This document shows positions 2,693-18,862 of a stretch of 64,000 nucleotides of DNA, one piece after another; within the stretch, counting starts at the first letter, position 1, and each line of letters opens with the position of its first letter. Origin of the DNA: a virus; the IMG/VR virus record IMGVR_UViG_3300045747_000527, positions 32,001 to 96,000 of that record; one strand, written 5' to 3'. The notes under the pieces are model-generated. The model ran no database searches and was not told the DNA's origin. It saw nothing but the letters and a program-made list of their open reading frames with translations. The position numbers and the translations under genes are program-made.

Positions 2693-2716
2693 GGGCCCAC
2701 AGGGGCCCTTTCCTTT
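2693..2716 (+). terminator. Intrinsic terminator
   Basis: GGGCCC-ACAG-GGGCCC followed by TTTCCTTT, just after the stop at 2686. Confidence 0.7.
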
Positions 2717-4550
2717 AGCCCAAGTTCTCCGAGAGCCCTGACTCCTGCACAGGCAGGATGATGTCATCCCTGCGGGTAACCAAAATGGACGCCAATACGC
2801 AGAGCAGGATGGCGTGAAAAGCATCGTCCGTCTTACCTGGTGGCTTCTTGAACTCGTTCATCCTCAGCCGGTCATTGTACTCCGTGAAGATGTTGAGAAT
2901 GTCCTGGCCGTGGGGATTCTGAAAGTCTTCCCAGCAGGGCAGATCAATCTTCTTTGCCTTCATGGCGTTGAAGATGTCGCTCATGATTTCTGTGCGGTGG
3001 CACATGTATCTGAGAAGGCTCGCATCCCAATAGATCTTTTTGCGCTGCCTCGGATTGTACTGGTACTTTGCCACGCGCCGCGGACCAAAGGCCTTGATGA
3101 GCTTGTCGTTCTGGTAGTGACCTCCACCGTAGTCGGTGCCGGTTACCTGGACGTTCAGCTGGCTCAGAATCTGGATGATGCTGTCCAGCTGCTTCTCGGG
3201 GTCCAAGTCTCGTCCCATGAACCGGTGAATCCAGAAGATGGTGAAGTTTCCAGTCCCCAAGTACCCGCCAAGCGCGATGGTGGTGTATGACGCCCGCTCT
3301 CCCGGACCCCAGTCGATGCCGGCGAATATTTGCCTGCCTTGGGCGAGCTCTCTGAACGCCTCGATGTCCACCAGCCGCACCGATGGGTTGCAGATGGCCT
3401 GCAGCTGAGCCCGCGTAATAGGACGAACGCCGGAGTCGTAGGACATGCCCAGCTTCTCGTTCATAAACTGGGCGCGCGAGTACTGCTCCTGTGCTTGAAG
3501 AACCTCTCCCCAGTCAACCCAGGGGACCATGATCTGAGGAATGCGGTAGCCCTCAAATGTGATCTTATCCGTGTTAGCTTCCGCGGGATTCATCGAAGCC
3601 CACATCGCCTGCGGATGCCGAGCTGAGATGAGGTTGCCGCACTTGTCACAGATAAGGCCCTCCTTCCCGATGCTCCGCTCCGTGAGCACGTTCCAGTGCC
3701 AAGTACTGGAGTCGTTGGGACCACCGTGCCGCTCGCAGGGGACCACCCACTCGTTTTGGGTCGAGAATTCGGACCAGTAGTGCTGGATGGTGTTGTCTAC
3801 AGACTTGGGCGTACCGGAGTAGAGGAACAGCTTGTAGCTAGAGTGGAAAGCGCACTGCTCGATGACGGGGATGTTGTCCACCATGATATCTTGGATCTCA
3901 TCGATAAGAACCAAGTCAGCCGGGATACCACGGACACGGTCAGCCGTGAGGTACGCGTACCTAAGTCTGATCTGAGAAAAGTTGATGAACTTCTTGAAGA
4001 AGACGGCTTGGTTTGCTGAGGAGGCGGTGTACGCCTTCAACATTGGCGACGCATCGATAACGTCCTTGATACGGTCATTCGAGAAGACCTTCGCCTGTTC
4101 CGCGGAAGGTGCTACGTACAGCGACCGAAAGTTGTTGGTCAAAGCTGAGTAGCACAAAAGCCGGTTGCCTAGCGTAGTTGATTTCTCGATCTGACGTCCG
4201 CACATAAGCAAAAGCTTCTTGGCGTCAGTATCGTAGATTTTCTGGAGGTACTCCCGCCCCTTGAATGAGAAGTCCGTCACGCGGCCAGCCTCAGGGACTC
4301 TGATGGCTGTCTCTGCAAACTGCGAAGGGGAGACTGAGATCAGCGCATCCTCGGTAGACTCATACGCATCGAAGGCCACCTCCTGTTCCGCCAAGAGACT
4401 CTCAGCAAAGTCCGGGTCATACTCCGGGCTGTCTACGTCGAACACAGAGAAGTCAACGTAAGGGGAGGGCTCTCCTGTGTACGAAGATCCTAGTTTCGTG
4501 TAACGCGCACCTGCCTGTGTTCTGACGCTGTCAAGAGGGACGATGGCCAT
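2715..4550 (-). CDS. terL: Terminase large subunit
   Basis: Walker A-like CGRQIEKST, Walker B RGIPADLVLIDEIQD, motif III SGTP, nuclease-domain FAGIDWG and DDAFHA, Cys cluster as in GpA-type terminases. Confidence 0.85.
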   Translation of the reverse strand: MAIVPLDSVRTQAGARYTKLGSSYTGEPSPYVDFSVFDVDSPEYDPDFAESLLAEQEVAFDAYESTEDALISVSPSQFAETAIRVPEAGRVTDFSFKGREYLQKIYDTDAKKLLLMCGRQIEKSTTLGNRLLCYSALTNNFRSLYVAPSAEQAKVFSNDRIKDVIDASPMLKAYTASSANQAVFFKKFINFSQIRLRYAYLTADRVRGIPADLVLIDEIQDIMVDNIPVIEQCAFHSSYKLFLYSGTPKSVDNTIQHYWSEFSTQNEWVVPCERHGGPNDSSTWHWNVLTERSIGKEGLICDKCGNLISARHPQAMWASMNPAEANTDKITFEGYRIPQIMVPWVDWGEVLQAQEQYSRAQFMNEKLGMSYDSGVRPITRAQLQAICNPSVRLVDIEAFRELAQGRQIFAGIDWGPGERASYTTIALGGYLGTGNFTIFWIHRFMGRDLDPEKQLDSIIQILSQLNVQVTGTDYGGGHYQNDKLIKAFGPRRVAKYQYNPRQRKKIYWDASLLRYMCHRTEIMSDIFNAMKAKKIDLPCWEDFQNPHGQDILNIFTEYNDRLRMNEFKKPPGKTDDAFHAILLCVLASILVTRRDDIILPVQESGLSENLG

Positions 4551-6135: not shown

Positions 6136-8184
6136 CTACTGTGCGTCGCTGTCTACTGTCTTCAGCCCCGCCACCACTTTGTCTAGGTGAACAAGAGACC
6201 GCTGGATGGCGCCCTCGTCTACAGAGTGGAGCCCAAGTCTGGCCGCGACTAGCAACTCTGCCAGCCGGCGGATGACGGTCTCAATCTCAGGGATGTAGCT
6301 GGCGAACACAGCCACGTTCTCGGGGGTGATGAACCCGAGAGACAGTATCTTGTCCACCGCAATAGGATCGTCGATGGCCGTCGCCTCTTTGAGAAGGATG
6401 TGGTCCGTGCCGCCCCGAACAGCAGACACTTTGTTGACCACCGCTTCGGCTACCTTGGGCATTCCCGTCGGCGCCATCGCCACAGGGCGTGCCTTGAACC
6501 AGCCATCGTAGCTACCCTTCTTCCGCATAGAAGACAGGTCTGCTGCGAACTTCACCGGGTCCTGCCCCAGCACCGCACCCAGGAAGATAGCCTCGTCTTT
6601 GGAGACATCGTTGGTGCGCAGAACACCAGCCAACTTGTCGATGGGCTGGCCGTCAAAGGAGAACCGCCTACCGTCTTGATCGGTGAACACGCGCACAGCC
6701 ATGGGAAGAACACGTGCCTGGGCCACCTTGCTAGCCTCGTCCACGGCCGCCTCTTCCGTAGGCCCGCCCATGATCTCTACGTCCTCACCCCAGGGGGCGA
6801 ACTTAGCCTCAGCAGGGACACCAAACGTGGTGGCATCGATCTGAGAAACCGCCTGCAGACCTGGCACCTTGCGCACCAGAAATTGCTGACCCATGCTGTC
6901 CGTGCAGCGGAAAGCCAGGGCACCGCCCATGACGACGGAACCATCCACAGAGACTGGCGCCAAGGCAATTGGCCCATCAGGTGCCTCAAAGTAGAAGACG
7001 CCCTCACCCACTGGCGGAACGTCCAAGGGCTGCTCCGTAGTCTCCAGGGGGGAGCCAGCCATGCCGCTACCCATCGCGGAGAACTCACCATCCGTGAAGA
7101 GCATGGTGGACAGCTCGCTACCATCCCAGTCCACTACGTGGGGGAATACCCACCCCGTCAGCGCCATGTTATCCGGCTGTGCACTCACCCGGTATTTGCC
7201 GAACTGCTGGATGAGCTGGAAGGGCTCGGCCTGTGCCAGGTCTTGCTGCTGCTCTGGTGGACCCGCGGTGGCCTGGCCGTTTTGGTCTGCTTCGTTGACC
7301 ATCTCCGGGCCCAGGGCCTGGGTAGCCTCTGGCCGTGAGACATCAGCCTGCGCCGGGGGCGCCATAGAATCAGGATTTGCCATCTTGATCCTGTACCCTT
7401 CTGCCAACTTCAGAAGTTGAACGACAGTACGTTCGCCAACTTCCAGTGCACCGGCAGAGGCCACTTTACGTGTCCCCTCACCTGCATGCATGAGGGTCTC
7501 GATAAAGTGCGCCATGGCCCCATTGTGCACAGCCGCGTGTCCTATGGCCGCGTCCTTCTCCAACAAGCCGATCATGGAGGCCACGTCCGCGCGCTGAACG
7601 GACGGCATGAGCGCGTCCATGAGATACTCAGGCTTAGCCGAACCCTCTTTGCTCGCACCTGACGAACCGATGTCCGCCATGAGGGGACCGCGGGCACCAC
7701 CGTACTGACGATGAGGCGGGTAAAGCTGTTCGATCATACTCATATCGCCAGGCCGCTCACGCACAGCCTCGAATAGCTGCGGGCGGAACATGGCACGGCG
7801 CAGACGCTCTTCTGTCAGCGGCTCGGTCTTGCCGTCAGAGAGGAGGAGGTCCAAGGGCTTCATCCTGCCATCCTGTACGATGACTGGGATGCACGCCTTC
7901 TGACTTCCCTTGAGCGCGGCAGGTGTCGAGTCATCCCGCGGGTTGATGGCGAGCTTGTTGCTCAGCTCCACCTGTCCCAGGGCATACCGCCTGTCTGCAT
8001 CCACCGTGGGAAGGACCACCTTGGGGCTAAAGTCGCTGGTATAGGGCACCTGGCGCAACAGTTCGTCGAGAATCTGTGTCGGCCAATCGTTGGGGTCCTC
8101 GCTCAGCATGACTTCCATGCCCAGCTTTTCAAACTTCAATTCCGTATCGAGGTATAGCTCCATGTGATCCCTCTCGTTAGTCAC
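6136..8184 (-). CDS. Large putative virion protein with multiple K-x-A motifs
   Basis: 682 aa; FEKLG, RKVAS, SKVAQ, DKLAG, PKVAE, LKEAT. Confidence 0.7.
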   Translation of the reverse strand: MTNERDHMELYLDTELKFEKLGMEVMLSEDPNDWPTQILDELLRQVPYTSDFSPKVVLPTVDADRRYALGQVELSNKLAINPRDDSTPAALKGSQKACIPVIVQDGRMKPLDLLLSDGKTEPLTEERLRRAMFRPQLFEAVRERPGDMSMIEQLYPPHRQYGGARGPLMADIGSSGASKEGSAKPEYLMDALMPSVQRADVASMIGLLEKDAAIGHAAVHNGAMAHFIETLMHAGEGTRKVASAGALEVGERTVVQLLKLAEGYRIKMANPDSMAPPAQADVSRPEATQALGPEMVNEADQNGQATAGPPEQQQDLAQAEPFQLIQQFGKYRVSAQPDNMALTGWVFPHVVDWDGSELSTMLFTDGEFSAMGSGMAGSPLETTEQPLDVPPVGEGVFYFEAPDGPIALAPVSVDGSVVMGGALAFRCTDSMGQQFLVRKVPGLQAVSQIDATTFGVPAEAKFAPWGEDVEIMGGPTEEAAVDEASKVAQARVLPMAVRVFTDQDGRRFSFDGQPIDKLAGVLRTNDVSKDEAIFLGAVLGQDPVKFAADLSSMRKKGSYDGWFKARPVAMAPTGMPKVAEAVVNKVSAVRGGTDHILLKEATAIDDPIAVDKILSLGFITPENVAVFASYIPEIETVIRRLAELLVAARLGLHSVDEGAIQRSLVHLDKVVAGLKTVDSDAQ

Positions 8185-9340
8185 TGATCAGAACTTTTCT
8201 AGATAGCATAGCAGGCGTTGGCGGGTCTACCTTGATTCCCACCGTCGCGAGTGTTGTCACAAGGTTCAGCAGCCATGGCACTACGATATCACCATGCAGG
8301 GCGGGATGAGAAGCGTTTGGGCCGCCAAGAAATAAAGCAGAGGCCCCGATTGTCTTCACCCCTGTCCAACTCTCAGTGCTTCCTCCTCCGCCACTGATCT
8401 TATGTTCGCCAGAGATGTCTGTGCTCTGTGAACCTTTCACCGTCGTGGTGTGGTCCTTTCCAACTGACAGAGAGCAGTTCCCTGAGATGGTATTAGTCTG
8501 ATCGCCGCCTACCTCGACTGTCAGATCTGAGGAGTACTTCGTGTACCCGACGCCGGTATTGAAGACTCGCATGACATAGGCTGGCTTCGCACTGATAGTC
8601 TCGCCGGTCGTGGGGTTTATCCCACCCGCAGCCACTACTACTTCGTAGTCTGCACCAGACTTGGCAACCGTACCTACACTGATACGAACTGACGCCTTCT
8701 CATCCTGAGCAGCTTCTCTCGCGATAAGATCGAACTGTACCGCCTGGTGTTGGTTGTCCGGTCCTGTGTCTGCGACCGCAGCTCGCCAGGTCATTGAGCC
8801 ACCAACTGTGTCAAGTTCCCAGTTCTCGCATACATCCCGGATAAGGTTGTTGAGTGGAATGAAGAGGCGCTGACAGATGTCAGAGGCCCCAATCTGCAGA
8901 ACACCACCACGACGCAGGACTAGGAAGTTGTCATCCCTTCCCTGGATATATAGATCTCCAGGGTTCAGAAGAGGTCGTCCAGCGTTGTACCCGCCCATCG
9001 AAGGCTGGTCTGCCGACTGTGGAGAGCCTGATGCCACTGTCATAGCCGGCTCCGGTGGCTCCAAGAATCCCATAACAAACGGAGCCTCCCCGTCTGCTGG
9101 CCAACATACGGCGCAGATAGCACCAAGGTCTGGTATGACCGTGAACCCTTCACCGTTGTTGTAGTGTAGGTACGGGGAGGATACCTGAATACCGGGAACC
9201 AGACGTCCAGTGTACTGTGCTGCCCAGTCCACGGTCTTGTTGACTGGGTTGACGTTAACGATCAACCCAGTTTCTACCCGCGTCTCTCCCGTTACGGTAG
9301 ACGATGCCCTGGAATTACCGAAGCTATACGCGCCAGCCAT
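8177..9340 (-). CDS. Baseplate central spike, T4 gp5/VgrG/gpV-like
   Basis: OB-fold signature IPDLGAICAVCWPADGEAPFVMGFL; C-terminal beta-helix repeats VGGDQTNTISGNCSLSVGKDHTTTVKGSQSTDISG. Confidence 0.75.
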   Translation of the reverse strand: MAGAYSFGNSRASSTVTGETRVETGLIVNVNPVNKTVDWAAQYTGRLVPGIQVSSPYLHYNNGEGFTVIPDLGAICAVCWPADGEAPFVMGFLEPPEPAMTVASGSPQSADQPSMGGYNAGRPLLNPGDLYIQGRDDNFLVLRRGGVLQIGASDICQRLFIPLNNLIRDVCENWELDTVGGSMTWRAAVADTGPDNQHQAVQFDLIAREAAQDEKASVRISVGTVAKSGADYEVVVAAGGINPTTGETISAKPAYVMRVFNTGVGYTKYSSDLTVEVGGDQTNTISGNCSLSVGKDHTTTVKGSQSTDISGEHKISGGGGSTESWTGVKTIGASALFLGGPNASHPALHGDIVVPWLLNLVTTLATVGIKVDPPTPAMLSRKVLISD

Positions 9341-12300
9341 CAGTACTCTCCTGGCTTGCCCCTACCAAACTCTGCGGCATAGGCGATGGCAGGGATCGGG
9401 TGTGGGCCGTGAATGTGGGAAGTCCAGCCACGTTGAGCGGCGTCTATGACGGTATCATGCAGCCGCTCATGGTTGAGTTTCGCCATCCAATCTTCTTGAA
9501 CTTCCAGAGGCATCATGTCCACCCCCTTCAGCAAAGGCTTGTGAAGCACTGGCTTCTGCCCCACGGCAAGGGACCTGTTGTGCGCCACCACCTGAGATGT
9601 CGGAGCATAGTCGCCCCGAATGAAGTGGGTAGAAGACCCTGGGTGCAACACCTCCGTAAGATTGGTGACCGCCTTCACCACCACCTCAGCATTCCGCCGT
9701 CTGATGCCCTCACTCTTGTACCGGTCATACAATGCCCCTGCTAGATGTCCCTGTGTGTGCTCGATGCCGGTGAGCTCCAGCAACTCGTGCGGATTGACGG
9801 GCCCTCCAGAAATGGCACTCCCCTTCTTCACATCCATCCCCTTCTTGAGCGGTGACCCGTCGTACATAGGTACGCCGCGCGAGTTGGGAACGTAGTGGCG
9901 GCGACCATCAACGATCACGTCATGACCACCAGCCGGGTCCTTCCGTATCTCCTCCACCTTTCCAGTGACAGCACTGAGCGTAGCCGAACCAGGCAATACC
10001 TTCGGCAAATTCAGCAGGTCCTGCACCTGCTGGAAATCATCCGTGAGACCAGACTTGGACGCAGCCGATCCGCCCGTATGAAAGGCCTTCATGGCGAGCT
10101 GAACCGACCTCTCACCCAACGCCTGACCTGCGAGGATGCCGATGTTCGTCCCCACTGGCGGCAGATGACCGTCACTGTCCAGCCCGAAACACTTCTGGCA
10201 AATACCGGGGCCGTGCAAGCAGCGCAGCGGTGACCTGACCACTACCTTGCCTACCTTATTGTTGCGAAGAGTACTTTTGATCTCAGGAGTTATCAGTGTT
10301 CCAGCCGGGAGGGTTCGGCTGCCAACCTTGATGGGCGCTGCTGTGTACCGGTCAAGTATGTCCCTCTCGTCCACGTCCAAAGAGATACCCTTGTCAGTGC
10401 CGCAGTCATTGTCCTTCACCAGCGTGTCCATCGTGGTGTTCATGACCATCTTGCTGATGTACCCAGGCTCGCTGACCGATTGCACCTTTTGGATCGCCCC
10501 TTTACGAGCGCCGCTCACCGACGTCCAGTACTCTGATACGTCCAAGCCTTCTGCATATGACTTGCGGATAGGCGTGGGGAGCACACGCCCCTTGGCGTCC
10601 ATGACCAGCATCGGAGACATCTTGATCTGACGGAGAGTATCCATACCGGGCTTGACCCCTGCACGGTGCATGGTCATCAAGTTGCTGCTCTCGTCCGTCA
10701 TCTTATCCAGGGCCGCGTGCATCGTCTCTGTAGCCTTCGTGTACGCAGCGATACTGTGCGCGTCTCGTTTCTCCGCGGAGCCTGTGCCCTTCTTGGCCTC
10801 AATATCTGCAACCGCGAGTATCTTGTCCCGCAGCGCTCGGTCTGGGGTCACATCTGACAACCCAAGGGAGAACGAACTCTGAGTAGACCACGCGTTACCT
10901 AGGTCCTTCAGCTTGTTGACGACAACCCCGTACTCGTTCTTGTGCTCCCGTGCCAGCTTGTCCAGCAGCGCATCCTGTGCCTTGCCGTTCAGTACGGATG
11001 TGCTGGTGAGAACCTCCTTGCGCATAACCTCCGGCAGTGCACCAGCCAATAGGAAACGCCCAACCGAAGCCTTGATACCAGAGATTGTGATCACATCATT
11101 CAGGCGCGCTTCCCCCTTTCGTACGGCAGTCTCCACCTCCTGGATGGTCTTGAACGACTTGCCAGTATCCGTGCCGGCTTTCGATATGCCGTACAGGCCC
11201 AGCTTCATCTCGTGCGTGGGTGAGTACATCACCCTGCCCGTAGACGGGCTAAACAGATTGTGGGAGGGCATCATCCCCCGCGCCTCTGTTACCGCCTGTG
11301 CTGACACAGGAACGAACGCACCCATGGCATCACCGTCGAAGTCTGCGTTGAATCCCGACGTAACCAACGGGTGTATCTGGATGGTACGCCCGCTCACGAT
11401 GCGTGGCTTGAACGCCTGCACACTGTATTTGTGCAAGACCGGGTCTCTTTTCACCAAGATAGGTCGGTCAGAGATGACCCGCTCTAGCGCGCGATCAACC
11501 ATCTCTCCGCCCTTCTCAATCTGCGCACGGGCTGCCAGTGGAGAGATGCCCTGCAAGTTGCGCAACTCCTTGATGATGAACGGTTTGTAGAGCTCGATAG
11601 CCGCGGGCTTAGGGATACCCACCTCGTCCAGACCCAGTGAAGGTTCGGGTACGATGGTGGAGCGCATCGTTAGATCTTGCTTCCGCTGTATCAGCTTGCT
11701 CTGGAAGAAGCCCTGTTTCGGCGCACCAGACTTCTCCCCTGTCTCAGTATCCACCACTCGCTTGCCGGCTATGATGTCCAAGATGCCGCGACGAACCTGC
11801 TTAGGGTACCCGCCAATACCAGTCAGGGCGTGCAGACCATCGTGGATTTCCTCACGCAAAGCAACCTTCGCCTCATCATCGTCCGGGATAAGCGGCGACA
11901 TCTCCTTGTACTTCTGCGAAGACAGGTGAATGTACTTGTACAACCCGTTCAGATCATCCTCGCTGATGCGCTTGCCATCCGAGACAGAAAGCGGCCGCAT
12001 AGCCGGGGGCAAGATGGGCACGTGGCTCATCATGTACGCATCTTGCGGAGTCAGCTTTGCCCTCTGAAGGGCAGTCAAGAACTTGATCGTCTTGTTCGCG
12101 TCGTCCAGCTTGGCCCCCTTCAAAGCGGGCTTCTCAATCTCAAGCCGAGCAGCCGCGAGTGCCTTGTCCACGCTGATGTTACCAAGCAGGTGGTTCACTG
12201 CCTTGCCGCCCACCATTGCCCCTGGAGATTCTACGGGAACTACCTTGCCTGTCTTATCCACAGCGACTCGGCCGGCGACCAAGTCAGTGTACGTGGTCCC

Positions 12301-15300
12301 CTTCATGCCGAGTAACGTACGAGTTGCTCCCGCGAACAGAGGATTGGGGAACGGCTCCGGCAAAGTCATGTGCGACCACATGGTGCCGTCCAAGCCGCCG
12401 GTAATCCGCGGGTCGAAGAGGCCATCCTTTTCGGGCACCATGTTCTTTGCGCGGACCCATTTGGCAGGGTTTTTGATCTCCCCGTTACTCTGCTCTAAAA
12501 CCTGCTTGTCCGTCATCGGCACCATCGTGAGGTTGCTGCCCTCCTTCTTGACGTTGACCCCGACACCCTTCAGGTACGCCATGAACTTGTTGTAGGAGAA
12601 CGTAGGCCGCGGAGCCGGAAGCATCTCACCTGCCTGAAGGGCATGCCAAAACTGGTCGTGCTGACCTGCATCGCTCTTCATCGTGTACATCTCGCGCAGG
12701 TTATGGACCGCGCCATGGGCCAACATGGCGTACAACCCTAGCGCGCCCAGCGACTGGGCTCCGTGTGGGCCACCGCCCTTAGGCACCATACTGCTGTCGT
12801 AGGCGTAGCCGGGGCCGCCGGCGCGAGCAATCATCTTCTTGTCCACCTGGTGAACCAGCTTGACGATGTGTTGTGGGCCCACCAGCACCTGACCCATGAC
12901 CTTCCCGGTCGTAGGGTCTACTATGTCCTCCTTGTCCGGAAGTCCGTGCGCCTTGAGCTCGTCTGTGACTTTTTGGTGCAGGTCTACGCCAGGCTCGAAG
13001 TTCTTAATGAAGTAGGTCTTGCCGGTCTTCTCTGCAATCTTTCCGGCAGAGACCTCCAACAGCTGTCCCAAGTTAGTGCGGCCGGGAACACCTGCAGGGT
13101 TAAGTAAGATCTCCGTGGGCCTGCCATCCAAGGTATGTGGCATCTCGTGATCGGCAAGGATCTTAGTCACGATCCCCTTGTTTCCGTGGCGACCTGCTAA
13201 CTTATCCCCGACCTCCATAGGTTGGAGTGTCTTCACGTGGACCGCCACAGCGTGGCCTGTCTTGGACACCTCCTGGACGATACCTGGGTGGTCTGCCTCC
13301 CACTTCATCGAGACGTCCTTGAACGGCTTAACGATGGACTTGTGCAGCTTGGACAGGTCCGCGTCTTCCCGGCGCTCGTTTTCGTTCTTCTGCTGAAGGG
13401 CAGCGATCAATGTGTCGCCTGGCATGACGATGTGTCCTTCGCGAACAACGCCGTCATCATCCAGCTTATCCGCCTGCTCCTTGTTCAAGGCCGCGGGTGC
13501 ATAGGCACGAAACTTCCTCTTGTCTAGGACATGCCCGGTATCCCGGCTGATCTCATGGCGGTACAAGTGCTCTGAAGACAGCTTCTTCGCCGCGGTCTCG
13601 CTGATGACAACGCCGTCCTCGAAGTTGTATCCCTTGTACGGCATGTAGGCCACGCGCAGATTAGTGCCCAGCGCCAGGTTGCCGCCCTTAGTGTAGTTGG
13701 TGTCCGCTACCACCTGGCCCTTCGTAACCTTGTCGCCTACTCCTACAAGAGGCTCTGAGTGGATGAACACACGGTCCGTGTTCAGTGGGAAGTTATCGTA
13801 GAGCTGGACCTCATGCTTCTTCCCCTTGACGTCCTCAATGATAATCCCGTCCTTCTTGATCTTGGTGACGACACCATCATGCTGGCTGTTGTGACTAGCG
13901 TACGCGCCCACTATCCTCTCGAAGCTGTCCTTACCCGCCAGGCTCTGCACCAGGGGCGCTTCCCTATCCTTCAGAGAGATGGCTTGCTCCATGTGCCGGC
14001 CCGCCATAGTAGTACGGTTAGGGTGGTCTGCTCCCATGAACGGGATCATATTAGTGGACGTAGAAAACAGCTGGATCGGGTCAAGCATAACGTAATCCGC
14101 TTCGTGCAGAGGCGCAGATACGATTTCGTTACCCACGCCACTCATGCGGATGTTCTTGGCTACCGCTACCGGCTTGCCCTTAGCCCACGTAACCTGATCT
14201 GGCAGCACCACCTTGGTGCGCATGACCTGACTAGGTGTGATCTCAGTCTGCTTGCCCGTCTTTGTGTCATAGACCCGCATGGTAATATCGTGGCCGCGCT
14301 TGCTGATACCTACGGGCATTCGCAAACTGATGCCGACATCCTGTCCTTCGGACGTGTGCAGCGGGTCCATGAACCCCATGTGTGACGGGTCTACTAGCTT
14401 AGCGTCGTCCGACACAACGTGAAAATCTGAGATGCCTCCCTTACCCATGATGGTGGTTTTCATCTGGTTAGAGATCATCTCAAGCGGGTTCAGCTGACTG
14501 GGTGTGTTTGCCAAACCGCTGTTGCCCGTGAACAAGGACCTTACGGACTTGTTGAACACGTCGGGGCCAATGATATCGCGGATGCCTCTGTCTGGTCGGT
14601 CGATGGTGTTCTTGACCTTACGTGTGATCTCTCTGGCTCCGTTCTGTACCCGCTCCGCCACAAAGTCCTCCACAGAATGCAGGTCCTTGAACATGAGTGA
14701 GTCGCGCGGGTCAGACTTGGCTGTGCCGCGGGAGATGCCTAACAGCTTATTCGACGCCGCTAAGATCGCTTCCCCACTAGCATTCGCGTATGGATGCCCG
14801 AGGGTGACCTGGTTGACGTCAGGGCGCGATCCAGTGTTCTGGAACACCTCCTGGGTAACAGACTGTGCTGTCTCGGGGTTAGGCGCCTTTTGCCCCGTAG
14901 CTATTTCGTGGAATCTAGACAGAGTCTTGTTCGCGTCAGCTGCGTTCGCGTCTACGATCTCCTTACCCCAGTGTTTCTCAAGTTCATCTGGGTGAATCCC
15001 CAGACCCTGTAGCATCGGAGCCAACGGCAGGTGCTTGCCCTCGTACTCCATCTGGAACTTCTTGCTCTCGGGATCGAAGTGCAGCTTGAACGGGCGCCCC
15101 TTCACTCCGGCAGTGTTGAAGCTGGTCTCCAACGACCCGTCATCCTTGACCATGGAGTATGCACCAGCCTTCAAACGCCACTGGTTGTCTACCTGGTACT
15201 CCTTGCCATCGATAATGTGGCTGAGCCTGCGCGTACTCTTGGGCAGGTCCATCAGCTTGATCTTCTTTTTCTCGATAACGTGGCCAGTAGCGTTATCCTT

Positions 15301-15519
15301 CAGAGCAATCGTAGCCTGCACCGGCACGGTCCAGCTTTTCCCCTGAATCTTGGCTTCCTTCTGCGACCGGATATCATCCAGGTCCAGGTTGTCTGGGATG
15401 CTGATATCGTGAAGCTCAAGAGTTCGCGTGTTCCCTATGATGGGGAAGATGCTCTTGGTTGCCTCAGTTACCTTGTCCTTCAGTACGGTGAAACCAGTTT
15501 CTGGGTTTAGACGCGCCAT
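9340..15519 (-). CDS. rpoBC: Single-chain fused beta-beta' DNA-dependent RNA polymerase
   Basis: Beta motifs in order: HTSEGQDVGI, MIPFMGADHPNRTTMAGRHMEQA, AYMPYKGYNFEDG, GDKLAGRHGNKG, REMYTMKSD. Beta' motifs then follow: PEKDGLF, RKQDLTMRSTI, KRDPVLH, catalytic NADFDGD (11329-11349), bridge helix GARKG, CxxxxxxCxxC, trigger loop QLAMKAFHTGG. No stop at the junction (~12540). Confidence 0.95.
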   Translation of the reverse strand: MARLNPETGFTVLKDKVTEATKSIFPIIGNTRTLELHDISIPDNLDLDDIRSQKEAKIQGKSWTVPVQATIALKDNATGHVIEKKKIKLMDLPKSTRRLSHIIDGKEYQVDNQWRLKAGAYSMVKDDGSLETSFNTAGVKGRPFKLHFDPESKKFQMEYEGKHLPLAPMLQGLGIHPDELEKHWGKEIVDANAADANKTLSRFHEIATGQKAPNPETAQSVTQEVFQNTGSRPDVNQVTLGHPYANASGEAILAASNKLLGISRGTAKSDPRDSLMFKDLHSVEDFVAERVQNGAREITRKVKNTIDRPDRGIRDIIGPDVFNKSVRSLFTGNSGLANTPSQLNPLEMISNQMKTTIMGKGGISDFHVVSDDAKLVDPSHMGFMDPLHTSEGQDVGISLRMPVGISKRGHDITMRVYDTKTGKQTEITPSQVMRTKVVLPDQVTWAKGKPVAVAKNIRMSGVGNEIVSAPLHEADYVMLDPIQLFSTSTNMIPFMGADHPNRTTMAGRHMEQAISLKDREAPLVQSLAGKDSFERIVGAYASHNSQHDGVVTKIKKDGIIIEDVKGKKHEVQLYDNFPLNTDRVFIHSEPLVGVGDKVTKGQVVADTNYTKGGNLALGTNLRVAYMPYKGYNFEDGVVISETAAKKLSSEHLYRHEISRDTGHVLDKRKFRAYAPAALNKEQADKLDDDGVVREGHIVMPGDTLIAALQQKNENERREDADLSKLHKSIVKPFKDVSMKWEADHPGIVQEVSKTGHAVAVHVKTLQPMEVGDKLAGRHGNKGIVTKILADHEMPHTLDGRPTEILLNPAGVPGRTNLGQLLEVSAGKIAEKTGKTYFIKNFEPGVDLHQKVTDELKAHGLPDKEDIVDPTTGKVMGQVLVGPQHIVKLVHQVDKKMIARAGGPGYAYDSSMVPKGGGPHGAQSLGALGLYAMLAHGAVHNLREMYTMKSDAGQHDQFWHALQAGEMLPAPRPTFSYNKFMAYLKGVGVNVKKEGSNLTMVPMTDKQVLEQSNGEIKNPAKWVRAKNMVPEKDGLFDPRITGGLDGTMWSHMTLPEPFPNPLFAGATRTLLGMKGTTYTDLVAGRVAVDKTGKVVPVESPGAMVGGKAVNHLLGNISVDKALAAARLEIEKPALKGAKLDDANKTIKFLTALQRAKLTPQDAYMMSHVPILPPAMRPLSVSDGKRISEDDLNGLYKYIHLSSQKYKEMSPLIPDDDEAKVALREEIHDGLHALTGIGGYPKQVRRGILDIIAGKRVVDTETGEKSGAPKQGFFQSKLIQRKQDLTMRSTIVPEPSLGLDEVGIPKPAAIELYKPFIIKELRNLQGISPLAARAQIEKGGEMVDRALERVISDRPILVKRDPVLHKYSVQAFKPRIVSGRTIQIHPLVTSGFNADFDGDAMGAFVPVSAQAVTEARGMMPSHNLFSPSTGRVMYSPTHEMKLGLYGISKAGTDTGKSFKTIQEVETAVRKGEARLNDVITISGIKASVGRFLLAGALPEVMRKEVLTSTSVLNGKAQDALLDKLAREHKNEYGVVVNKLKDLGNAWSTQSSFSLGLSDVTPDRALRDKILAVADIEAKKGTGSAEKRDAHSIAAYTKATETMHAALDKMTDESSNLMTMHRAGVKPGMDTLRQIKMSPMLVMDAKGRVLPTPIRKSYAEGLDVSEYWTSVSGARKGAIQKVQSVSEPGYISKMVMNTTMDTLVKDNDCGTDKGISLDVDERDILDRYTAAPIKVGSRTLPAGTLITPEIKSTLRNNKVGKVVVRSPLRCLHGPGICQKCFGLDSDGHLPPVGTNIGILAGQALGERSVQLAMKAFHTGGSAASKSGLTDDFQQVQDLLNLPKVLPGSATLSAVTGKVEEIRKDPAGGHDVIVDGRRHYVPNSRGVPMYDGSPLKKGMDVKKGSAISGGPVNPHELLELTGIEHTQGHLAGALYDRYKSEGIRRRNAEVVVKAVTNLTEVLHPGSSTHFIRGDYAPTSQVVAHNRSLAVGQKPVLHKPLLKGVDMMPLEVQEDWMAKLNHERLHDTVIDAAQRGWTSHIHGPHPIPAIAYAAEFGRGKPGEY

Positions 15520-15633
15520 GTGCTCCTCGCGGTTGGTCTTCGGAGATTCTGCAAGCTCCTACAACTCCTACCAAAATACCAGATTTTGGGGGCGCTAGGG
15601 AATGAAACCCTGCAAGAAGGCCCTCGCAGGCAC

Positions 15634-15662
15634 TGAAAGCGCAGATCATAAGTGGGTATAAG
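15634..15662 (+). promoter_or_regulatory. Phage promoter motif, copy 3 (divergent from the RNAP gene)
   Basis: TGAAAgcgcagatcataagtgGGTATAAG. Confidence 0.7.
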
Positions 15663-15712
15663 ACAGGTAGAGGACGAGAACAATACTCGTACCCAATCAA
15701 GGAGGCGCCAAC

Positions 15713-15838
15713 ATGTACCCGGAAAATGAAGATGCCAGTGGCCAAGACGATGACGAAATGGACGAGGAGCCGACGAATACAGGAGAGGCGCTAGAGGCGG
15801 ATTTCTTCCAGCAATTCGACAAGGACGACGCTGGATGA
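15713..15838 (+). CDS. 41-aa highly acidic peptide
   Basis: AAGGAGG RBS. MYPENEDASGQDDDEMDEEPTNTGEALEADFFQQFDKDDAG (16 D/E, 1 K). Not in the ORF track. Confidence 0.65.
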   Translation: MYPENEDASGQDDDEMDEEPTNTGEALEADFFQQFDKDDAG

Positions 15839-15942
15839 GATTCTTTTGGATCTTCATGTTGTCTGTGCTGACAACAATGATCACAGAAATAATCTGTGAT
15901 CTGAACTGGGCGCGCGCACAGCGCGGTGACTCATGTTCATGA
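15835..15942 (+). CDS. 35-aa hydrophobic peptide
   Basis: ATGA-coupled to the acidic peptide; MRFFWIFMLSVLTTMITEIICDLNWARAQRGDSCS. Confidence 0.45.
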   Translation: MRFFWIFMLSVLTTMITEIICDLNWARAQRGDSCS

Positions 15943-16421
15943 AGATCCTGTCCACAGAAGCCTTATGTATCTGTGGAAAGCGGCTCGGTGAGGACACACT
16001 CGTTCTCATCGAGTCCGGCCAAATGTTACCGAGCAAGAAAGATAATCGGTTCTTACGCTTTCACCCGGACTGGAGTCTGCCTGCAGACAAATGGAACGAA
16101 CCGGGTGACCCAGAGAGCGTGCTACGCAAGGTAGTGCACTTCGAGTGTCTCAGAGAACGCTTCAACATCACAGACAAGACCTGGAGGGGAGACCCACAGG
16201 TGAACGAGTGCCACATCTGTGACAGAAGCTTTCTCTCCTGTAAATGGGCTCATCGATACACGGTGGGCGAGATCGTAAATGGCATCTTCGAACAAGATCT
16301 AGAGATGCCTAATTGGAAGGGTATCGTGTGCAGCTTTTGCGCTGAGGTAATAGCGCAAGACCCGCCAGCGATACCAGAGATCAAACAACCCACGAGAGGG
16401 CAACTCTCGCTCTTCGAGTGA
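15933..16421 (+). CDS. Cys-rich (Zn-binding) protein with C-terminal beta-clamp-binding-like motif
   Basis: CICG, HFEC, CHICD, CSFC; ends GQLSLFE. Confidence 0.7.
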   Translation: MFMKILSTEALCICGKRLGEDTLVLIESGQMLPSKKDNRFLRFHPDWSLPADKWNEPGDPESVLRKVVHFECLRERFNITDKTWRGDPQVNECHICDRSFLSCKWAHRYTVGEIVNGIFEQDLEMPNWKGIVCSFCAEVIAQDPPAIPEIKQPTRGQLSLFE

Positions 16422-16438
16422 CACAGAAAGGAGGCCGC

Positions 16439-16846
16439 ATGTCTAATCAACCGGAACGGAAACCCTTCCCAGCTAGTCCCCCACCAGAGTTACGTTTCTT
16501 CAGGGCAAGTCCGGCGGCCTCCGAGGTCGTCAAACAGAACTTCCTAGACCTAGTACACAAAGAAACAGATCTGACCATAAACGCATTCCTCAGGCTCCAA
16601 AGCCTAGAACAGAGGCTGGTCTACTGGGTAAACGTGGAGGTAGCTCTCGGCAAGTCAGAACACCCGACGTACTACTGGTACCCACGGGACAAAGCCAAAA
16701 AGCTGGTAGAGGAAACGAAGCTATCCCCAGACTACATAACGTACAGGCTGATCAGAGAAGCCATGCAGAACACCAACGAGGCCGGGCATGAGGATTTCCG
16801 CCGGCTCGTCGAGCTGATGTTCAACCCACAGAAGTGTACTCGGTAA
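16439..16846 (+). CDS. Hypothetical protein
   Basis: GGAGG RBS before the ATG at 16439; convergent with the portal gene. Confidence 0.6.
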   Translation: MSNQPERKPFPASPPPELRFFRASPAASEVVKQNFLDLVHKETDLTINAFLRLQSLEQRLVYWVNVEVALGKSEHPTYYWYPRDKAKKLVEETKLSPDYITYRLIREAMQNTNEAGHEDFRRLVELMFNPQKCTR

Positions 16847-18862
16847 CTAAACCAGCGCGGCCTCTACACCGCGTCTCGGAGCTCTCTGCTGTGGCAGGGG
16901 TCTCGCTGAGGCGGAAGAGGCTGCGCTGGGGCCGTTACCCCCACTTGCCATTAGCCCTAGTACGGCGCTGTAAAGCTCCGGGCTCGCTGTCTGCAGACGC
17001 CCCAGCACCTCCTGTCGGTTACCCATAGGCACCTGGGCCACTCTGTCCGCCAGCTTACGTGCTGTCACCAAGAGCTGAGCGTCAGCTCCTGACCCGCCGG
17101 AAGGTGCACTCTGGAGTTCGAGCGGAGACTTCACAGCCTTGGGCATATCTAGGACTGTGGGGTCCCGCGGCGTAGGCTGCAGGTCCGGGTTCTCTGGCTG
17201 TGGCTGCCCAGTCTGAGCTGCCATCTGGTGATCCATGATGTCCTTCTGGACCTCAGCCTGGAACGCACCCTGATCTTTGTTGGCCTCATTCTGCAGAGCC
17301 AACTGTTCAGCCATCGCCTTATTCTGCGCCTTGGTCTGCCACTTCGAGGTAACCATCGCAGCCTCGCCTTCGATGTCTGCCTGAAGCAAACGCTGCTTCT
17401 TGGTGACGTTCGCGCGACGAGCCGTTTCCATCTCCAGAATCTTGTCCTCTTTCTGAGAATCAAGATCTGCGTCTGCCAGCAAAGTTTCGTCAGACACCTT
17501 GCCTGCTTGTGCGAGCTGGAAGAGGTACGCCTTGCGCTGAAGATCGTCCGCCATCTTGAAAGGCTTGAACCGGGCACGAACCGGGGCCCACCCCAAGTAG
17601 GAAGATGTGCGCTCAATGATCCAATGGAGCAGCGTCTTGTGGTCTGTCAGATAGCCAAGGTGCATGTTCTCCAACATGCGCATGCTGACGTTGGAGCCGC
17701 TGTACGAGAGACCACCAAAGATCAGCTCTACAGGCACGCCCATGCCCGCGATGATGTGCTCCGACCACACACGAATCTCCTGGCTAAGGAGCATCGCCCG
17801 GCCGTCACCACCGATGGTCTGCTGCCCGATGGGCAGAGACATGATCGGAATATAGTTGTTATCCGCACGCCACTGCCGAATCTCCTGTGCCACCTGATCT
17901 CGCCAGTCAGCCAGGTTCACGCTGGAGTACGGGTCAGACGAGGCAGAGCCAGCCTGCGGGAACAACACGCGCAAAGGAACGATGTGCTCCATCGCGATGC
18001 TCTCCTGTGCCTTGCGAAGAATCTGCAGGTAGAAGGTGTCCTTCAGTACCGGCAAGATCATAGGCGTTCCCCAGCCGCGGTCCTTGCCCGCGAGAGTTGG
18101 ACGCTTGAAGTGGAAGATATTGTCTCGGCTGAAGACGACTGCTTTCTTTAGCCTAAGCGCCTCGATGAACAGCTGTGGCACCGTCTCAACCGCGGACTTC
18201 TTGCCGATAATGACGTCGTTCTTCAGCTGCACCGGGATGGTGTAGTAGTACTCGTACTCGCCGTTGATGTCATTGTACCGAATGTCCACGTCCTCCGGGT
18301 TCCACCGGATAAGCCGGATACCCTTCGCCGCCTTGACGTAGTGGTCCCGCACCTTGCACGGCCCCATCTCGCCGCACTTCGGGCAGTTCCAGTGGAACTC
18401 GAAGTTCATGAACCGGTAATCTGCGTGAGCCGCTTCCTTCTCGTAGTTGCAGTTCTTGCAGATTAAGATCTTAACGAACGGGTAAAAGATGCTGACCAGA
18501 GCGTTGCCGTAGACGTAGTAGTCCAGGCCAACCTCTATCTGAAACGCACGGTAGCGCAGCTGCTCACCCAGGAAGGCAGACCACCGCTCTTTGTGCTCCA
18601 GCCTGTCCGTATCCAGGATGATATCTGTGACTGGGTACTCGGCCATCTTGGAGGCCACTGTGTTGATCAGCGGGTTGACCAAGAAATAGTACCGACACCA
18701 CCGGAACATCTGCTTGACGGTGGCCGGCAGGTACGTCTGACCAATGTCAAAGAATGGACTCGGGTATTGGAGACCCTGGTCGCCCGAGCCCCCGATGCGT
18801 CCGCGAGTACGAGAGAACCTAAGTGCGGAGGACGCGAGGTCCCCAGAACCCATGAGGGCCAT
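16847..18862 (-). CDS. Portal protein with Zn-ribbon insertion and Gln-rich tail
   Basis: Portal-like architecture (NPLINTVASKMAEYP; GWGTPMILPVLKD; GVPVELIFGGLSYSGSNV). CKNC...CPKC insert. Located in the head/packaging region. Confidence 0.7.
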   Translation of the reverse strand: MALMGSGDLASSALRFSRTRGRIGGSGDQGLQYPSPFFDIGQTYLPATVKQMFRWCRYYFLVNPLINTVASKMAEYPVTDIILDTDRLEHKERWSAFLGEQLRYRAFQIEVGLDYYVYGNALVSIFYPFVKILICKNCNYEKEAAHADYRFMNFEFHWNCPKCGEMGPCKVRDHYVKAAKGIRLIRWNPEDVDIRYNDINGEYEYYYTIPVQLKNDVIIGKKSAVETVPQLFIEALRLKKAVVFSRDNIFHFKRPTLAGKDRGWGTPMILPVLKDTFYLQILRKAQESIAMEHIVPLRVLFPQAGSASSDPYSSVNLADWRDQVAQEIRQWRADNNYIPIMSLPIGQQTIGGDGRAMLLSQEIRVWSEHIIAGMGVPVELIFGGLSYSGSNVSMRMLENMHLGYLTDHKTLLHWIIERTSSYLGWAPVRARFKPFKMADDLQRKAYLFQLAQAGKVSDETLLADADLDSQKEDKILEMETARRANVTKKQRLLQADIEGEAAMVTSKWQTKAQNKAMAEQLALQNEANKDQGAFQAEVQKDIMDHQMAAQTGQPQPENPDLQPTPRDPTVLDMPKAVKSPLELQSAPSGGSGADAQLLVTARKLADRVAQVPMGNRQEVLGRLQTASPELYSAVLGLMASGGNGPSAASSASARPLPQQRAPRRGVEAALV

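What the first reader, a model, noticed from the sequence alone, without database searches (positions are those of the whole stretch)
9340..15519. Single-polypeptide, bacterial-like beta-beta' RNA polymerase embedded in the virion-structural operon
All core beta and beta' motifs occur in order in one 2059-aa ORF (E. coli beta plus beta' = 2749 aa). Motifs can be aligned by eye to bacterial RpoB/RpoC, so it looks far less divergent than phiKZ/AR9 split subunits or the crAss-like single-chain gp66. Natural rpoBC fusions are known in Helicobacter and Wolbachia, and multi-subunit-RNAP-encoding tailed phages have been reported, so novelty of the fusion itself must be checked. It is co-oriented with and flanked by the spike and portal genes, which suggests virion packaging and ejection. 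No alpha, omega or sigma gene is seen in the window. Together with the GGTATAAG promoters, the K-x-A ejected proteins and the pyrophosphatase-like protein, this may be a minimal self-sufficient phage transcription system.
Basis: partly seen in the sequence, partly recalled or inferred. Interest (0 to 1): 0.9.

Follow-up and report, generated by a model that had tools for sequence, protein, structure and literature searches.

The report
Single-chain phage RNA polymerase with sigma
A complete 191-kb uncultured pond phage encodes both large subunits of a bacterial-type RNA polymerase as one compact protein, next to its portal gene. This is the normal state in a very large phage family that I found in no paper, but the enzyme is not factor-free: the phage also carries its own sigma factors.

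Summary
Window 9340-15519 (-) is one intact 2059-aa ORF: a complete beta fused directly to a beta'. All catalytic motifs are present. It lacks the beta' N-terminal zinc ribbon and the large lineage-specific inserts.

The fusion is not an assembly error. A contig from an independent pond metagenome crosses the junction without a difference. At least 58 of 69 testable IMG/VR relatives, and all top 150 clusters at 50% identity, have the same fusion.

The nearest cultured relatives are Salmonella phage Arash and Vibrio phages D69/D181, about 32-34% identical. They keep the beta-beta' junction but split beta' further on. Trees rooted on bacteria place that split inside the fused radiation, so it is derived.

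The genome has no alpha or omega, but it has two sigma-70-family genes outside the window. One is conserved across the family and was detected in Arash virions together with the polymerase.

My best model is a sigma-dependent, probably alpha-independent polymerase. It is probably carried in the virion and is predicted to be rifampicin-insensitive. Packaging and alpha-independence are inferred, not shown.

This scan found the same family earlier on other DNA.

The parts
9340..15519 (-). Single ORF of 2059 aa: fused beta-beta' RNA polymerase (P0001)
   Evidence: ORF list and translation; Pfam beta and beta' domains in order; matches to solved bacterial beta' chains
12541..15519 (-). Beta module, residues 1-993. 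It corresponds to E. coli beta 52-1340 but lacks about beta 230-375 (including SI1) and SI2. The flap-tip stretch appears retained by eye.
   Evidence: BLASTP against E. coli RpoB; Rpb2_3, Rpb2_6 and Rpb2_7
9340..12540 (-). Beta' module, residues 994-2059. It has the clamp helices, NADFDGD, bridge helix and trigger loop. It has no SI3 and no N-terminal zinc ribbon.
   Evidence: BLASTP against E. coli RpoC; local alignment of the N-terminus; PDB matches
12490..12567 (-). Fusion junction, residues ~985-1010. The last beta strand (GVNVKK) joins through a tight turn to the first beta' strand (NLTMVP).
   Evidence: Alignment with the E. coli beta C-end; AF2 model has strands 448-453 and 456-461; junction columns are invariant in 42 relatives; an independent contig spans it
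12382..12399 (-). Site where the beta' zinc ribbon (E. coli C70..C88) is missing. The sequence runs from ..DPRITGG straight to LDGTMWSH.
   Evidence: Local alignment and Cys count: no Cys in residues 994-1110 and only four Cys in the whole protein
11329..11349 (-). NADFDGD, the catalytic Mg-binding motif of beta' (residues 1391-1397)
   Evidence: Motif search; alignment with E. coli beta' 458-464
13174..13194 (-). GRHGNKG, the beta active-site lysine motif (residues 776-782)
   Evidence: Motif search; alignment with E. coli beta 1065-1073 region
14443..14526 (-). Equivalent of the rifampicin-resistance cluster I (residues 332-359). E. coli D516, H526 and S531 correspond to S341, N351 and T356.
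   Evidence: Read from the BLASTP alignment. The prediction of rifampicin insensitivity is inference from established knowledge of resistance positions in RpoB.
10189..10404 (-). Second beta' zinc site is retained. C1706, C1767, C1774 and C1777 are the only cysteines in the protein.
   Evidence: Cys positions; alignment with E. coli C814, C888, C895 and C898
16847..18862 (-). Portal protein gene, upstream of the polymerase on the same strand
   Evidence: 33% identity to Arash portal gp204, E 6e-94; a portal lies upstream on the same strand in 57 of 69 relatives
8177..9340 (-). Spike/hub-like protein of 387 aa. Its start codon overlaps the polymerase stop codon by one base.
   Evidence: Weak matches to Gp5_trimer_C (E 2e-5, below Pfam cut-off) and phrog_430; a homolog lies downstream on the same strand in 46 of 69 relatives
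2715..4550 (-). Large terminase subunit, in the same minus-strand late block
   Evidence: phrog_675 E 3e-58 and GpA_ATPase; 29% identity to Arash gp1
15655..15662 (+). One of 33 genomic copies of GGTATAAG with an upstream GNAAA box. It points into the two plus-strand genes (15933-16846) that sit between portal and polymerase.
   Evidence: Genome-wide motif count: 33 found against about 4 expected

Best explanation
SHOWN: the ORF is an intact, catalytically complete, head-to-tail fusion of a bacterial-type beta to a beta'. The last strand of beta runs through a tight turn into the first strand of beta'. The protein is slimmed to 2059 aa by loss of the lineage-specific inserts (SI1, SI2, SI3), part of the beta lobe and the beta' N-terminal zinc ribbon. 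It is the only RNA polymerase gene in a complete 191-kb phage genome. The full fusion is the ancestral state of a very large family of roughly 150-200-kb tailed phages. The Arash/D69 branch later split beta' about 90 residues after the NADFDGD motif. The genome has no alpha or omega but has two sigma-70-family genes. One is a 256-aa sigma2-sigma3-sigma4 protein, conserved in the family and sitting among large structural genes. The other is a 192-aa FliA-like sigma. INFERRED: the single chain pairs with the family sigma to form the holoenzyme. The beta' clamp helices and the beta flap tip, the sigma docking sites, appear retained by eye in the alignments. The holoenzyme then reads phage promoters, and the 33 GNAAA-N17/18-GGTATAAG sites ahead of early-type genes are the obvious candidates. 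The gene is conserved between the portal and baseplate-type genes, and both the polymerase and the sigma were found in Arash particles. I therefore think the enzyme is made late, packed into the capsid and ejected with the DNA to start early transcription. Newly made enzyme, perhaps with the second sigma, would transcribe later genes. A covalent beta-beta' link would guarantee 1:1 stoichiometry and could replace the alpha dimer as an assembly scaffold. Substitutions at the three main rifampicin-resistance positions predict that infection is rifampicin-insensitive.
For: - Gene and domains.
- One polymerase per genome, and a complete genome with a 181-bp terminal repeat.
- Junction: an independent metagenome contig spans 12268-16000 with 0 differences. 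Junction columns are invariant in 42 homologs. The AF2 model shows an ordered strand-turn-strand there, and each half matches solved bacterial beta and beta' chains at E about 1e-32.
- Family size: the 120 best 90%-identity clusters shown, at least 528 IMG/VR contigs, and the top 150 clusters at 50% identity all fused-type. Of 69 testable loci, 58 are fully fused.
- Split is derived: FastTree and IQ-TREE PMSF trees.
- Sigma factors: FliA-like; family sigma; profile against PDB SigA/RpoD E 1e-15; all top structural matches are sigma chains.
- No alpha or omega.
- Synteny with portal and spike-like genes.
- Arash virion proteome: Gp206 gave 3516 spectra, Gp216 gave 1210, and sigma Gp10 had 100% coverage (PMC10585845).
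- Promoter motif.
Against: - Packaging has not been tested for this phage. The Arash preparation listed 116 proteins, including ribonucleotide reductases, and its authors say abundant infection proteins may have carried over.
- The protein has no N-terminal extension that could serve as a capsid-targeting peptide. Residue 20 already aligns with beta residue 52.
- TATAAG is close to the host sigma-70 -10 hexamer, so the host polymerase could read the early promoters.
- No promoter class was found for the late minus-strand block.
- Absence of an alpha gene does not show alpha-independence; host alpha could be recruited.
- Which of the two sigma factors, if either, binds this enzyme rather than the host core is unknown.
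Confidence: 0.6

Rival explanations
1. The enzyme is not carried in the virion. Host RNA polymerase reads the GGTATAAG early promoters. The phage polymerase and its sigma are made during infection and take over middle and late transcription. Their presence in Arash particles is carry-over from the lysate.
For: The -10-like TATAAG differs from TATAAT at one position. There is only one polymerase gene, whereas the phiKZ-type phages with a proven virion enzyme carry a second, non-virion set (PMC7598289, PMC7824862). The Arash proteome is broad, and its authors raise carry-over themselves. In the mReC-like Cobetia phage Carin-5, the sigma, beta and beta' genes sit in the replication module.
Against: The gene is kept between the portal and baseplate-type genes on the same strand across the family. 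The family sigma sits among large structural genes next to the homolog of the Arash virion cell-wall hydrolase. A polymerase needed for late transcription but encoded in the late block has a bootstrapping problem. The upstream box GNAAA is unlike TTGACA.
Confidence: 0.25
2. The enzyme is a hybrid that needs host subunits. The phage chain supplies beta-beta', but it folds and works only with the host alpha dimer, and perhaps omega, like an ordinary bacterial core.
For: The protein is close enough to bacterial beta and beta' (27-35% identity to many phyla) that alpha-binding surfaces might survive. Cellular rpoBC fusions in Helicobacter and Wolbachia still use alpha (general knowledge).
Against: No alpha gene is present in this phage or in five complete relatives. 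A family spread over many unknown hosts would need to match each host's alpha. The split multisubunit polymerases of jumbo phages work without alpha (PMC7598289, PMC8287921). The stretch aligned to E. coli beta 1110-1229 is about half as long here.
Confidence: 0.2
3. The long ORF is an artefact: an assembly join or a missed frameshift between separate rpoB-like and rpoC-like genes.
For: None was found.
Against: A contig from a different sample and study spans 12268-16000 with no difference. Relatives from 86% down to 31% identity keep one frame across the junction. The junction residues are invariant.
Confidence: 0.01

Closest known systems
RNA polymerase of Salmonella phage Arash (gp206 + gp216, sigma gp10; OQ632216, PMC10585845) and of Vibrio phages D69/D148/D181
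   Same: Same family: 34% identity over about 1500 residues to gp206 and 25% to gp216. The beta-beta' junction is equally direct. The portal lies just upstream. The sigma gp10 homolog and the cell-wall-hydrolase neighbour are conserved. Genome size is similar, 181-187 kb.
   Different: In Arash and D69, beta' is cut after about residue 1480 of my numbering, and the C-terminal 606-609 aa are encoded 0.6-4.8 kb downstream. Here the whole protein is one chain. Trees show the split branch is derived. The Arash paper labels gp206 a 'beta subunit' and does not mention a fusion.
mReC: multisubunit-RNAP-encoding Caudovirales (Weinheimer and Aylward 2020, PMC7481178), e.g. Cobetia phage Carin-5
   Same: Tailed phages with recognisably bacterial-like beta and beta' that branch apart from cellular enzymes. 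Carin-5, whose gene arrangement matches the mReC lengths, has a sigma gene beside its beta and beta' genes.
   Different: Every mReC row I read lists beta and beta' as separate ORFs of about 900-1560 aa each; none is a roughly 2050-aa fusion. In Carin-5 the genes sit in the replication module, not beside the portal. Whether the fused family branches inside mReC is unresolved, because the one mReC-like row was a long, half-filled branch.
Cellular rpoBC fusions (Helicobacter, Wolbachia)
   Same: Beta is followed directly by beta' in one polypeptide. This is possible because the beta C-end and the beta' N-end lie side by side in the clamp (general knowledge). The model here shows them as adjacent strands.
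   Different: The cellular fusions are about 2800-2900 aa (from memory), keep the zinc ribbon and work with alpha2 and omega. This protein is 2059 aa, lacks the zinc ribbon, and its phage has no alpha or omega. It is no closer to any one bacterial phylum.
crAss-like phage gp66 virion RNA polymerase
   Same: A single-chain enzyme with both double-psi beta-barrels, thought to be delivered from the virion.
   Different: PMC7481178 reports that the crAssphage fused enzyme has no recognisable sequence homology to the beta and beta' models. This protein scores Pfam E 4e-61 and PDB E 1e-109 and comes with a sigma-70-family factor.
phiKZ/AR9-type jumbo-phage virion and non-virion RNA polymerases
   Same: Phage-encoded multisubunit-type polymerases without alpha. 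One set is packed in the virion for early transcription (PMC7598289).
   Different: Those are cut into 4-5 polypeptides, come as two sets per genome and have no sigma factor (PMC7824862). Here there is one chain, one set and two sigma factors.

Membership tests
Bacterial-type RNAP beta (RpoB) | Catalytic double-psi barrel domain (Rpb2_6) with the GRHGNKG lysine motif | tested here: met
   PF00562 E 4e-61 over residues 547-903; motif at residue 776
Bacterial-type RNAP beta (RpoB) | Fork/Rif region (Rpb2_3) and N-terminal protrusion and lobe | tested here: inconclusive
   Rpb2_3 is found at E 2e-6. Residues 20-189 align with E. coli beta 52-229 (E 9e-6), but about beta 230-375 has no counterpart and Pfam Rpb2_1/Rpb2_2 are not detected.
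Bacterial-type RNAP beta' (RpoC) | NADFDGD Mg site, bridge helix and trigger loop | tested here: met
   Motifs at residues 1391, 1670 and 1813; Rpb1_2, Rpb1_3 and Rpb1_5; alignment with E. coli beta' 178-939
Bacterial-type RNAP beta' (RpoC) | N-terminal Cys4 zinc ribbon | tested here: not met
   No Cys in residues 994-1110. The alignment jumps from E. coli residue 63 to the MGHIEL equivalent. No Cys appears in the family consensus there.
Bacterial core enzyme (alpha2-beta-beta'-omega) | Alpha and omega subunits encoded or used | tested here: not met
   PF01000, PF01193 and PF01192 are absent from the complete genome. PF01000 is absent from five complete relatives. Use of host alpha is not testable here.
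Sigma-70-dependent holoenzyme | A sigma-70-family factor is present and its docking sites are retained | tested here: met
   Two sigma genes are present. The clamp helices and flap-tip stretch align with E. coli. Physical binding is not testable here.
Arash-type phage RNAP family | Direct beta-beta' junction, portal-adjacent gene and conserved gp10-like sigma | tested here: met
   nested in one clade with Arash and D69
Arash-type phage RNAP family | Beta' split into two genes after about residue 1480 | tested here: not met
   One uninterrupted ORF here, and in 58 of 69 testable relatives
mReC (PMC7481178) | Separate beta and beta' genes that form a clade apart from cellular homologs | tested here: inconclusive
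   Separate genes: not met. Apart from bacteria: met (100* branch). Relation to mReC sequences themselves was tested only through one long-branch row.
Virion RNA polymerase (N4, phiKZ vRNAP, crAss gp66) | Protein present in purified particles and ejected into the host | not testable with these tools
   Only indirect evidence: gene position and the proteome of a 34%-identical relative

The most novel reading that the evidence does not exclude
A ready-made bacterial-type holoenzyme, consisting of one 2059-aa beta-beta' chain plus a 256-aa sigma with no alpha and no omega, is packed in the capsid and injected. That would make a whole, very large family of ~190-kb phages independent of host RNA polymerase from the first minute (rifampicin-resistant infection). 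It would also be the smallest known sigma-dependent multisubunit-type polymerase, encoded by two genes.
Probability: 0.35. Interest if true: 0.85.

Novelty: new variant of a known kind. Interest (0 to 1): 0.65.

Why it matters
Phage-encoded multisubunit-type polymerases are known so far as heavily split enzymes (phiKZ/AR9), as separate beta and beta' (mReC), or as a fusion too diverged to align (crAss gp66). Here the opposite solution is taken: a compact, easily alignable bacterial-type enzyme in one chain that keeps the classical sigma mechanism but has no alpha or omega gene. It is the rule in hundreds of uncultured phages.

If the chain folds and works without alpha, it becomes a natural experiment on what the alpha scaffold, the zinc ribbon and the large inserts are for. 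It would also be a two-gene, sigma-programmable, probably rifampicin-insensitive transcription module for synthetic biology.

Cultured relatives exist (Arash on Salmonella, D69-type phages on Vibrio), so packaging, rifampicin resistance and promoter use are directly testable.

The trees also give a clear case of gene fission after fusion in a core enzyme.

Tried and rejected
1. An omega-like or assembly partner encoded just upstream. The 125-aa ORF at 15507-15884 (-) overlaps the polymerase start. It has no family match and no counterpart in relatives, whose upstream ORFs look spurious. It also contains a plus-strand GGTATAAG promoter. Rejected as a conserved partner; the ORF itself is doubtful.
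2. A late-promoter motif for the minus-strand block. K-mer enrichment over 42 upstream regions gave nothing convincing.
3. Near-identical phage records: megablast found none.
4. A host or donor clue from bacterial genomes. The 80 best loci are ordinary rpoB-rpoC from many phyla at 27-35% identity. None carries the fused gene.
5. Expression evidence: no RNA holder was listed among public runs. All three runs are DNA contigs, so nothing can be said about transcripts.
6. Placing the family relative to mReC. Only Cobetia phage Carin-5 could be added, and it was a long branch with 48% of columns filled. I left it out of the IQ-TREE run.
7. Rhizobium phage RHph_TM3_3_6 was fetched but covers only part of beta', so it was not used in the trees.
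8. Literature searches for a described fused bacterial-like beta-beta' in tailed phages returned only crAss gp66 and cellular rpoBC operons.
Full report
THE GENE

The window is bases 32001-96000 of an IMG/VR virus record of 191,220 bp. CheckV rates it 100% complete. Its first 30 bases recur 181 bases before the end, so it carries a terminal direct repeat.

The ORF at 9340-15519 (-) is real. It starts with ATG and encodes 2059 aa without a stop. Pfam places beta domains and then beta' domains along it in the cellular order:
- Rpb2_3, Rpb2_6 (E 4e-61) and a weak Rpb2_7.
- Rpb1_1, Rpb1_2, Rpb1_3 and Rpb1_5.

Solved bacterial beta' chains match at up to E 1e-109.

ANATOMY

Against E. coli, residues 20-189 align with beta 52-229, residues 213-715 with beta 376-894, and residues 758-993 with beta 1050-1340.
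- The beta part therefore runs from near its N-end to its very C-end.
- It lacks about beta 230-375 (including SI1) and SI2.
- By eye, the stretch aligned around the flap tip appears retained.

The beta C-terminal helix and strand (..FSYNKFMAYLKGVGVNVKKE) are followed after three residues by the beta' N-terminus. Residues 1011-1041 align with beta' 34-63.

The beta' zinc ribbon is gone. After ..DPRITGG the chain goes straight on to the equivalent of MGHIEL. There is no cysteine between residues 994 and 1110. The whole protein has only four cysteines, which are exactly the second beta' zinc site.

Residues 1101-1817 align with beta' 178-939. This stretch holds the clamp helices, NADFDGD (1391), the bridge helix (GARKG, 1670) and the trigger loop (FHTGG, 1813). 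SI3 is absent.

An AlphaFold2 model of residues 541-1500 has mean pLDDT 76.
- It puts the last beta strand and the first beta' strand side by side, joined by a tight turn.
- One half matches solved bacterial beta chains and the other half beta' chains, at E about 1e-32.

In the rifampicin cluster I equivalent, E. coli D516, H526 and S531 correspond to S341, N351 and T356 (alignment). From established knowledge of resistance positions, I predict the enzyme is rifampicin-insensitive. This is an inference.

NOT AN ARTEFACT, AND NOT ALONE

A contig from a second pond metagenome, from a different sample and study, covers 12268-16000 with no difference.

Homologs are numerous:
- The word-indexed search listed the 120 best clusters at 90% identity. 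Nearly all are about 2030-2080 aa or longer with intein domains, at 45-86% identity. They lie on contigs of up to about 199 kb.
- The exhaustive search of 50%-identity representatives returned 150 of 150 top hits of the fused type. All have E below 1e-154 and are mostly 2000-4739 aa, the shorter entries probably fragments or split forms.
- IMG/VR holds at least 528 contigs with a relative.

Of the 80 loci fetched, 69 are not cut by a contig end:
- 58 have beta, the junction and the beta' C-part in one frame. Of these, 41 are about 1940-2210 aa and 17 are longer.
- 4 clearly have the beta' C-part as a separate downstream gene.
- 3 more end at the same place.
- 4 are irregular; L081 has its beta' C-part about 1.7 kb downstream and clusters with the split group.

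Junction residues are invariant in an alignment of 42 members.

RELATIVES AND HISTORY

The nearest cultured phages are Vibrio phages D69, D148 and D181 and Salmonella phage Arash, at 32-34% identity. They carry a 1525-1527-aa protein holding beta plus the beta' N-part, and a separate 606-609-aa beta' C-part.

Bacterial genomes gave only ordinary rpoB-rpoC at 27-35% identity. These come from many phyla with none favoured, so there is no recent donor.

I built two trees on query-anchored alignments: a FastTree tree of 113 rows and an IQ-TREE LG+C20 PMSF tree of 47 rows by 1681 columns.
- Both separate bacteria from the phage family (100*).
- Both make the split forms one clade (100*).
- Rooted on bacteria, both nest that clade among fully fused lineages.

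So the full fusion is ancestral and the Arash-type fission is derived. In the split loci, one or two small ORFs sit between the pieces, and D148/D181 have a homing endonuclease annotated there.

The mReC phages of Weinheimer and Aylward list separate beta and beta' ORFs in every row I read. Their text mentions fusion only for crAssphage. Literature searches found no description of this fused family. The Arash paper calls gp206 a beta subunit.

PARTNERS

The genome has a single polymerase. It has no alpha (PF01000, PF01193) and no omega (PF01192). Five complete relatives also lack alpha.

It does have two sigma-70-family genes, both outside the window.
- The first is at genome 157897-158475 (-). 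It is a 192-aa FliA/WhiG-like protein with regions 2 and 4.
- The second is at genome 118657-119508 (-), with a called gene of 256 aa. It is the homolog of Arash gp10 (27% identity, E 6e-23). It sits beside the homolog of the Arash virion cell-wall hydrolase.

Evidence on the second, family-conserved sigma:
- It carries Sigma70_r3 above the Pfam cut-off and a C-terminal HTH.
- Its family profile matches SigA, RpoD and RpoS from region 2.4 to region 4.2 at E 1e-15.
- Its model has pLDDT 87.5, and all its best structural matches are sigma chains of holoenzymes.
- Homologs occur in 4 of 5 complete relatives and in 118 clusters. Five of these lie on contigs whose lengths match RNAP-bearing contigs, so they are probably the same contigs.

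The 'sigma-less minimal system' reading is therefore not supported.

WHERE AND WHEN IT ACTS

The gene lies in a minus-strand block with the large terminase (2715-4550), a spike-like gene that starts at its stop codon (8177-9340) and the portal (16847-18862).
- A portal lies upstream on the same strand in 57 of 69 relatives.
- The spike-like gene lies downstream in 46 of 69.

In Arash particles, Gp206 gave the most spectra of any protein (3516). Gp216 gave 1210, and sigma Gp10 was covered 100%. However, 116 proteins were listed, and the authors themselves note possible carry-over.

GGTATAAG occurs 33 times against about 4 expected. Of these, 28 are on the plus strand. Most are intergenic, lie ahead of small early-type genes and have GNAAA 17-18 nt upstream. 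No such site and no other enriched motif heads the late block.

I conclude that a sigma-dependent single-chain polymerase, probably packed into the virion to start early transcription, is the best-supported model. Packaging, the choice of sigma and alpha-independence remain inferences.

EARLIER NOTES OF THIS SCAN

The same family was found before on another genome, there with two inteins. That follow-up reached the same conclusions. Notes on this genome had already pointed out the missing zinc ribbon and SI3 and the GGTATAAG promoters. I re-derived both here.

Noticed in passing
Relatives: L014, L021, L033, L041, L054, L069, L076, L078, L084 and others; proteins P0004, P0011, P0018, P0031 and others: Seventeen of the 58 fully fused polymerase ORFs among the fetched relatives are longer than 2250 aa (up to 3596 aa; up to 4739 aa in the representative library). 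Such long homologs often carry intein or homing-endonuclease Pfam domains (PF14528, PF14890, PF03161, PF05204, PF07591). The window's copy has none.
   Followed up: partly
window 9340-15519: The 2059-aa protein contains only four cysteines. All four belong to the retained second beta' zinc site.
   Followed up: yes
whole genome; in the window at 2423, 4573, 15655, 22647, 31036, 39969 and 58037 (+): GGTATAAG occurs 33 times in the genome against about 4 expected. It mostly has GNAAA 17-18 nt upstream and points into small genes. The late minus-strand blocks have none.
   Followed up: partly
window 15507-15884 (-): A 125-aa ORF overlaps the polymerase start by 13 nt. It has no family match and no counterpart in relatives, and it contains a plus-strand promoter-like site. 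It is probably not a gene.
   Followed up: yes
genome 156733-159933 (L004), outside the window: The FliA-like sigma gene is flanked by two small ORFs with Cys/His-rich, HNH-endonuclease-like motifs (..HHKDEHKRNN.., ..CANCHRKLH..). It may therefore sit in a mobile or recently acquired patch.
   Followed up: no
L057, L087, L061, L067, L081; OZ196140 and OZ196545: In the split (Arash-type) relatives, one or two small ORFs lie between the two polymerase genes. Vibrio phages D181 and D148 have a homing endonuclease annotated there. This suggests the fission came from an insertion.
   Followed up: partly
L053, L081, L071: Three relatives have the polymerase homology spread over more than one frame or interrupted. 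This could be a frameshift, an intron or a sequencing error.
   Followed up: no
L170 (Cobetia phage Carin-5, PV155638): A 155-kb cultured phage has an annotated sigma factor gene directly ahead of separate beta (1083 aa) and beta' (927 aa) genes. They lie in its replication module, next to topoisomerase and DNA polymerase I.
   Followed up: no
genome ends (G000:C1:1-181 and 191040-191220): The record's first 30 bases recur 181 bases before its end, consistent with a 181-bp direct terminal repeat although longer prefix-suffix comparisons failed. The record is therefore probably a complete circularly assembled genome, although IMG/VR lists it as linear.
   Followed up: partly
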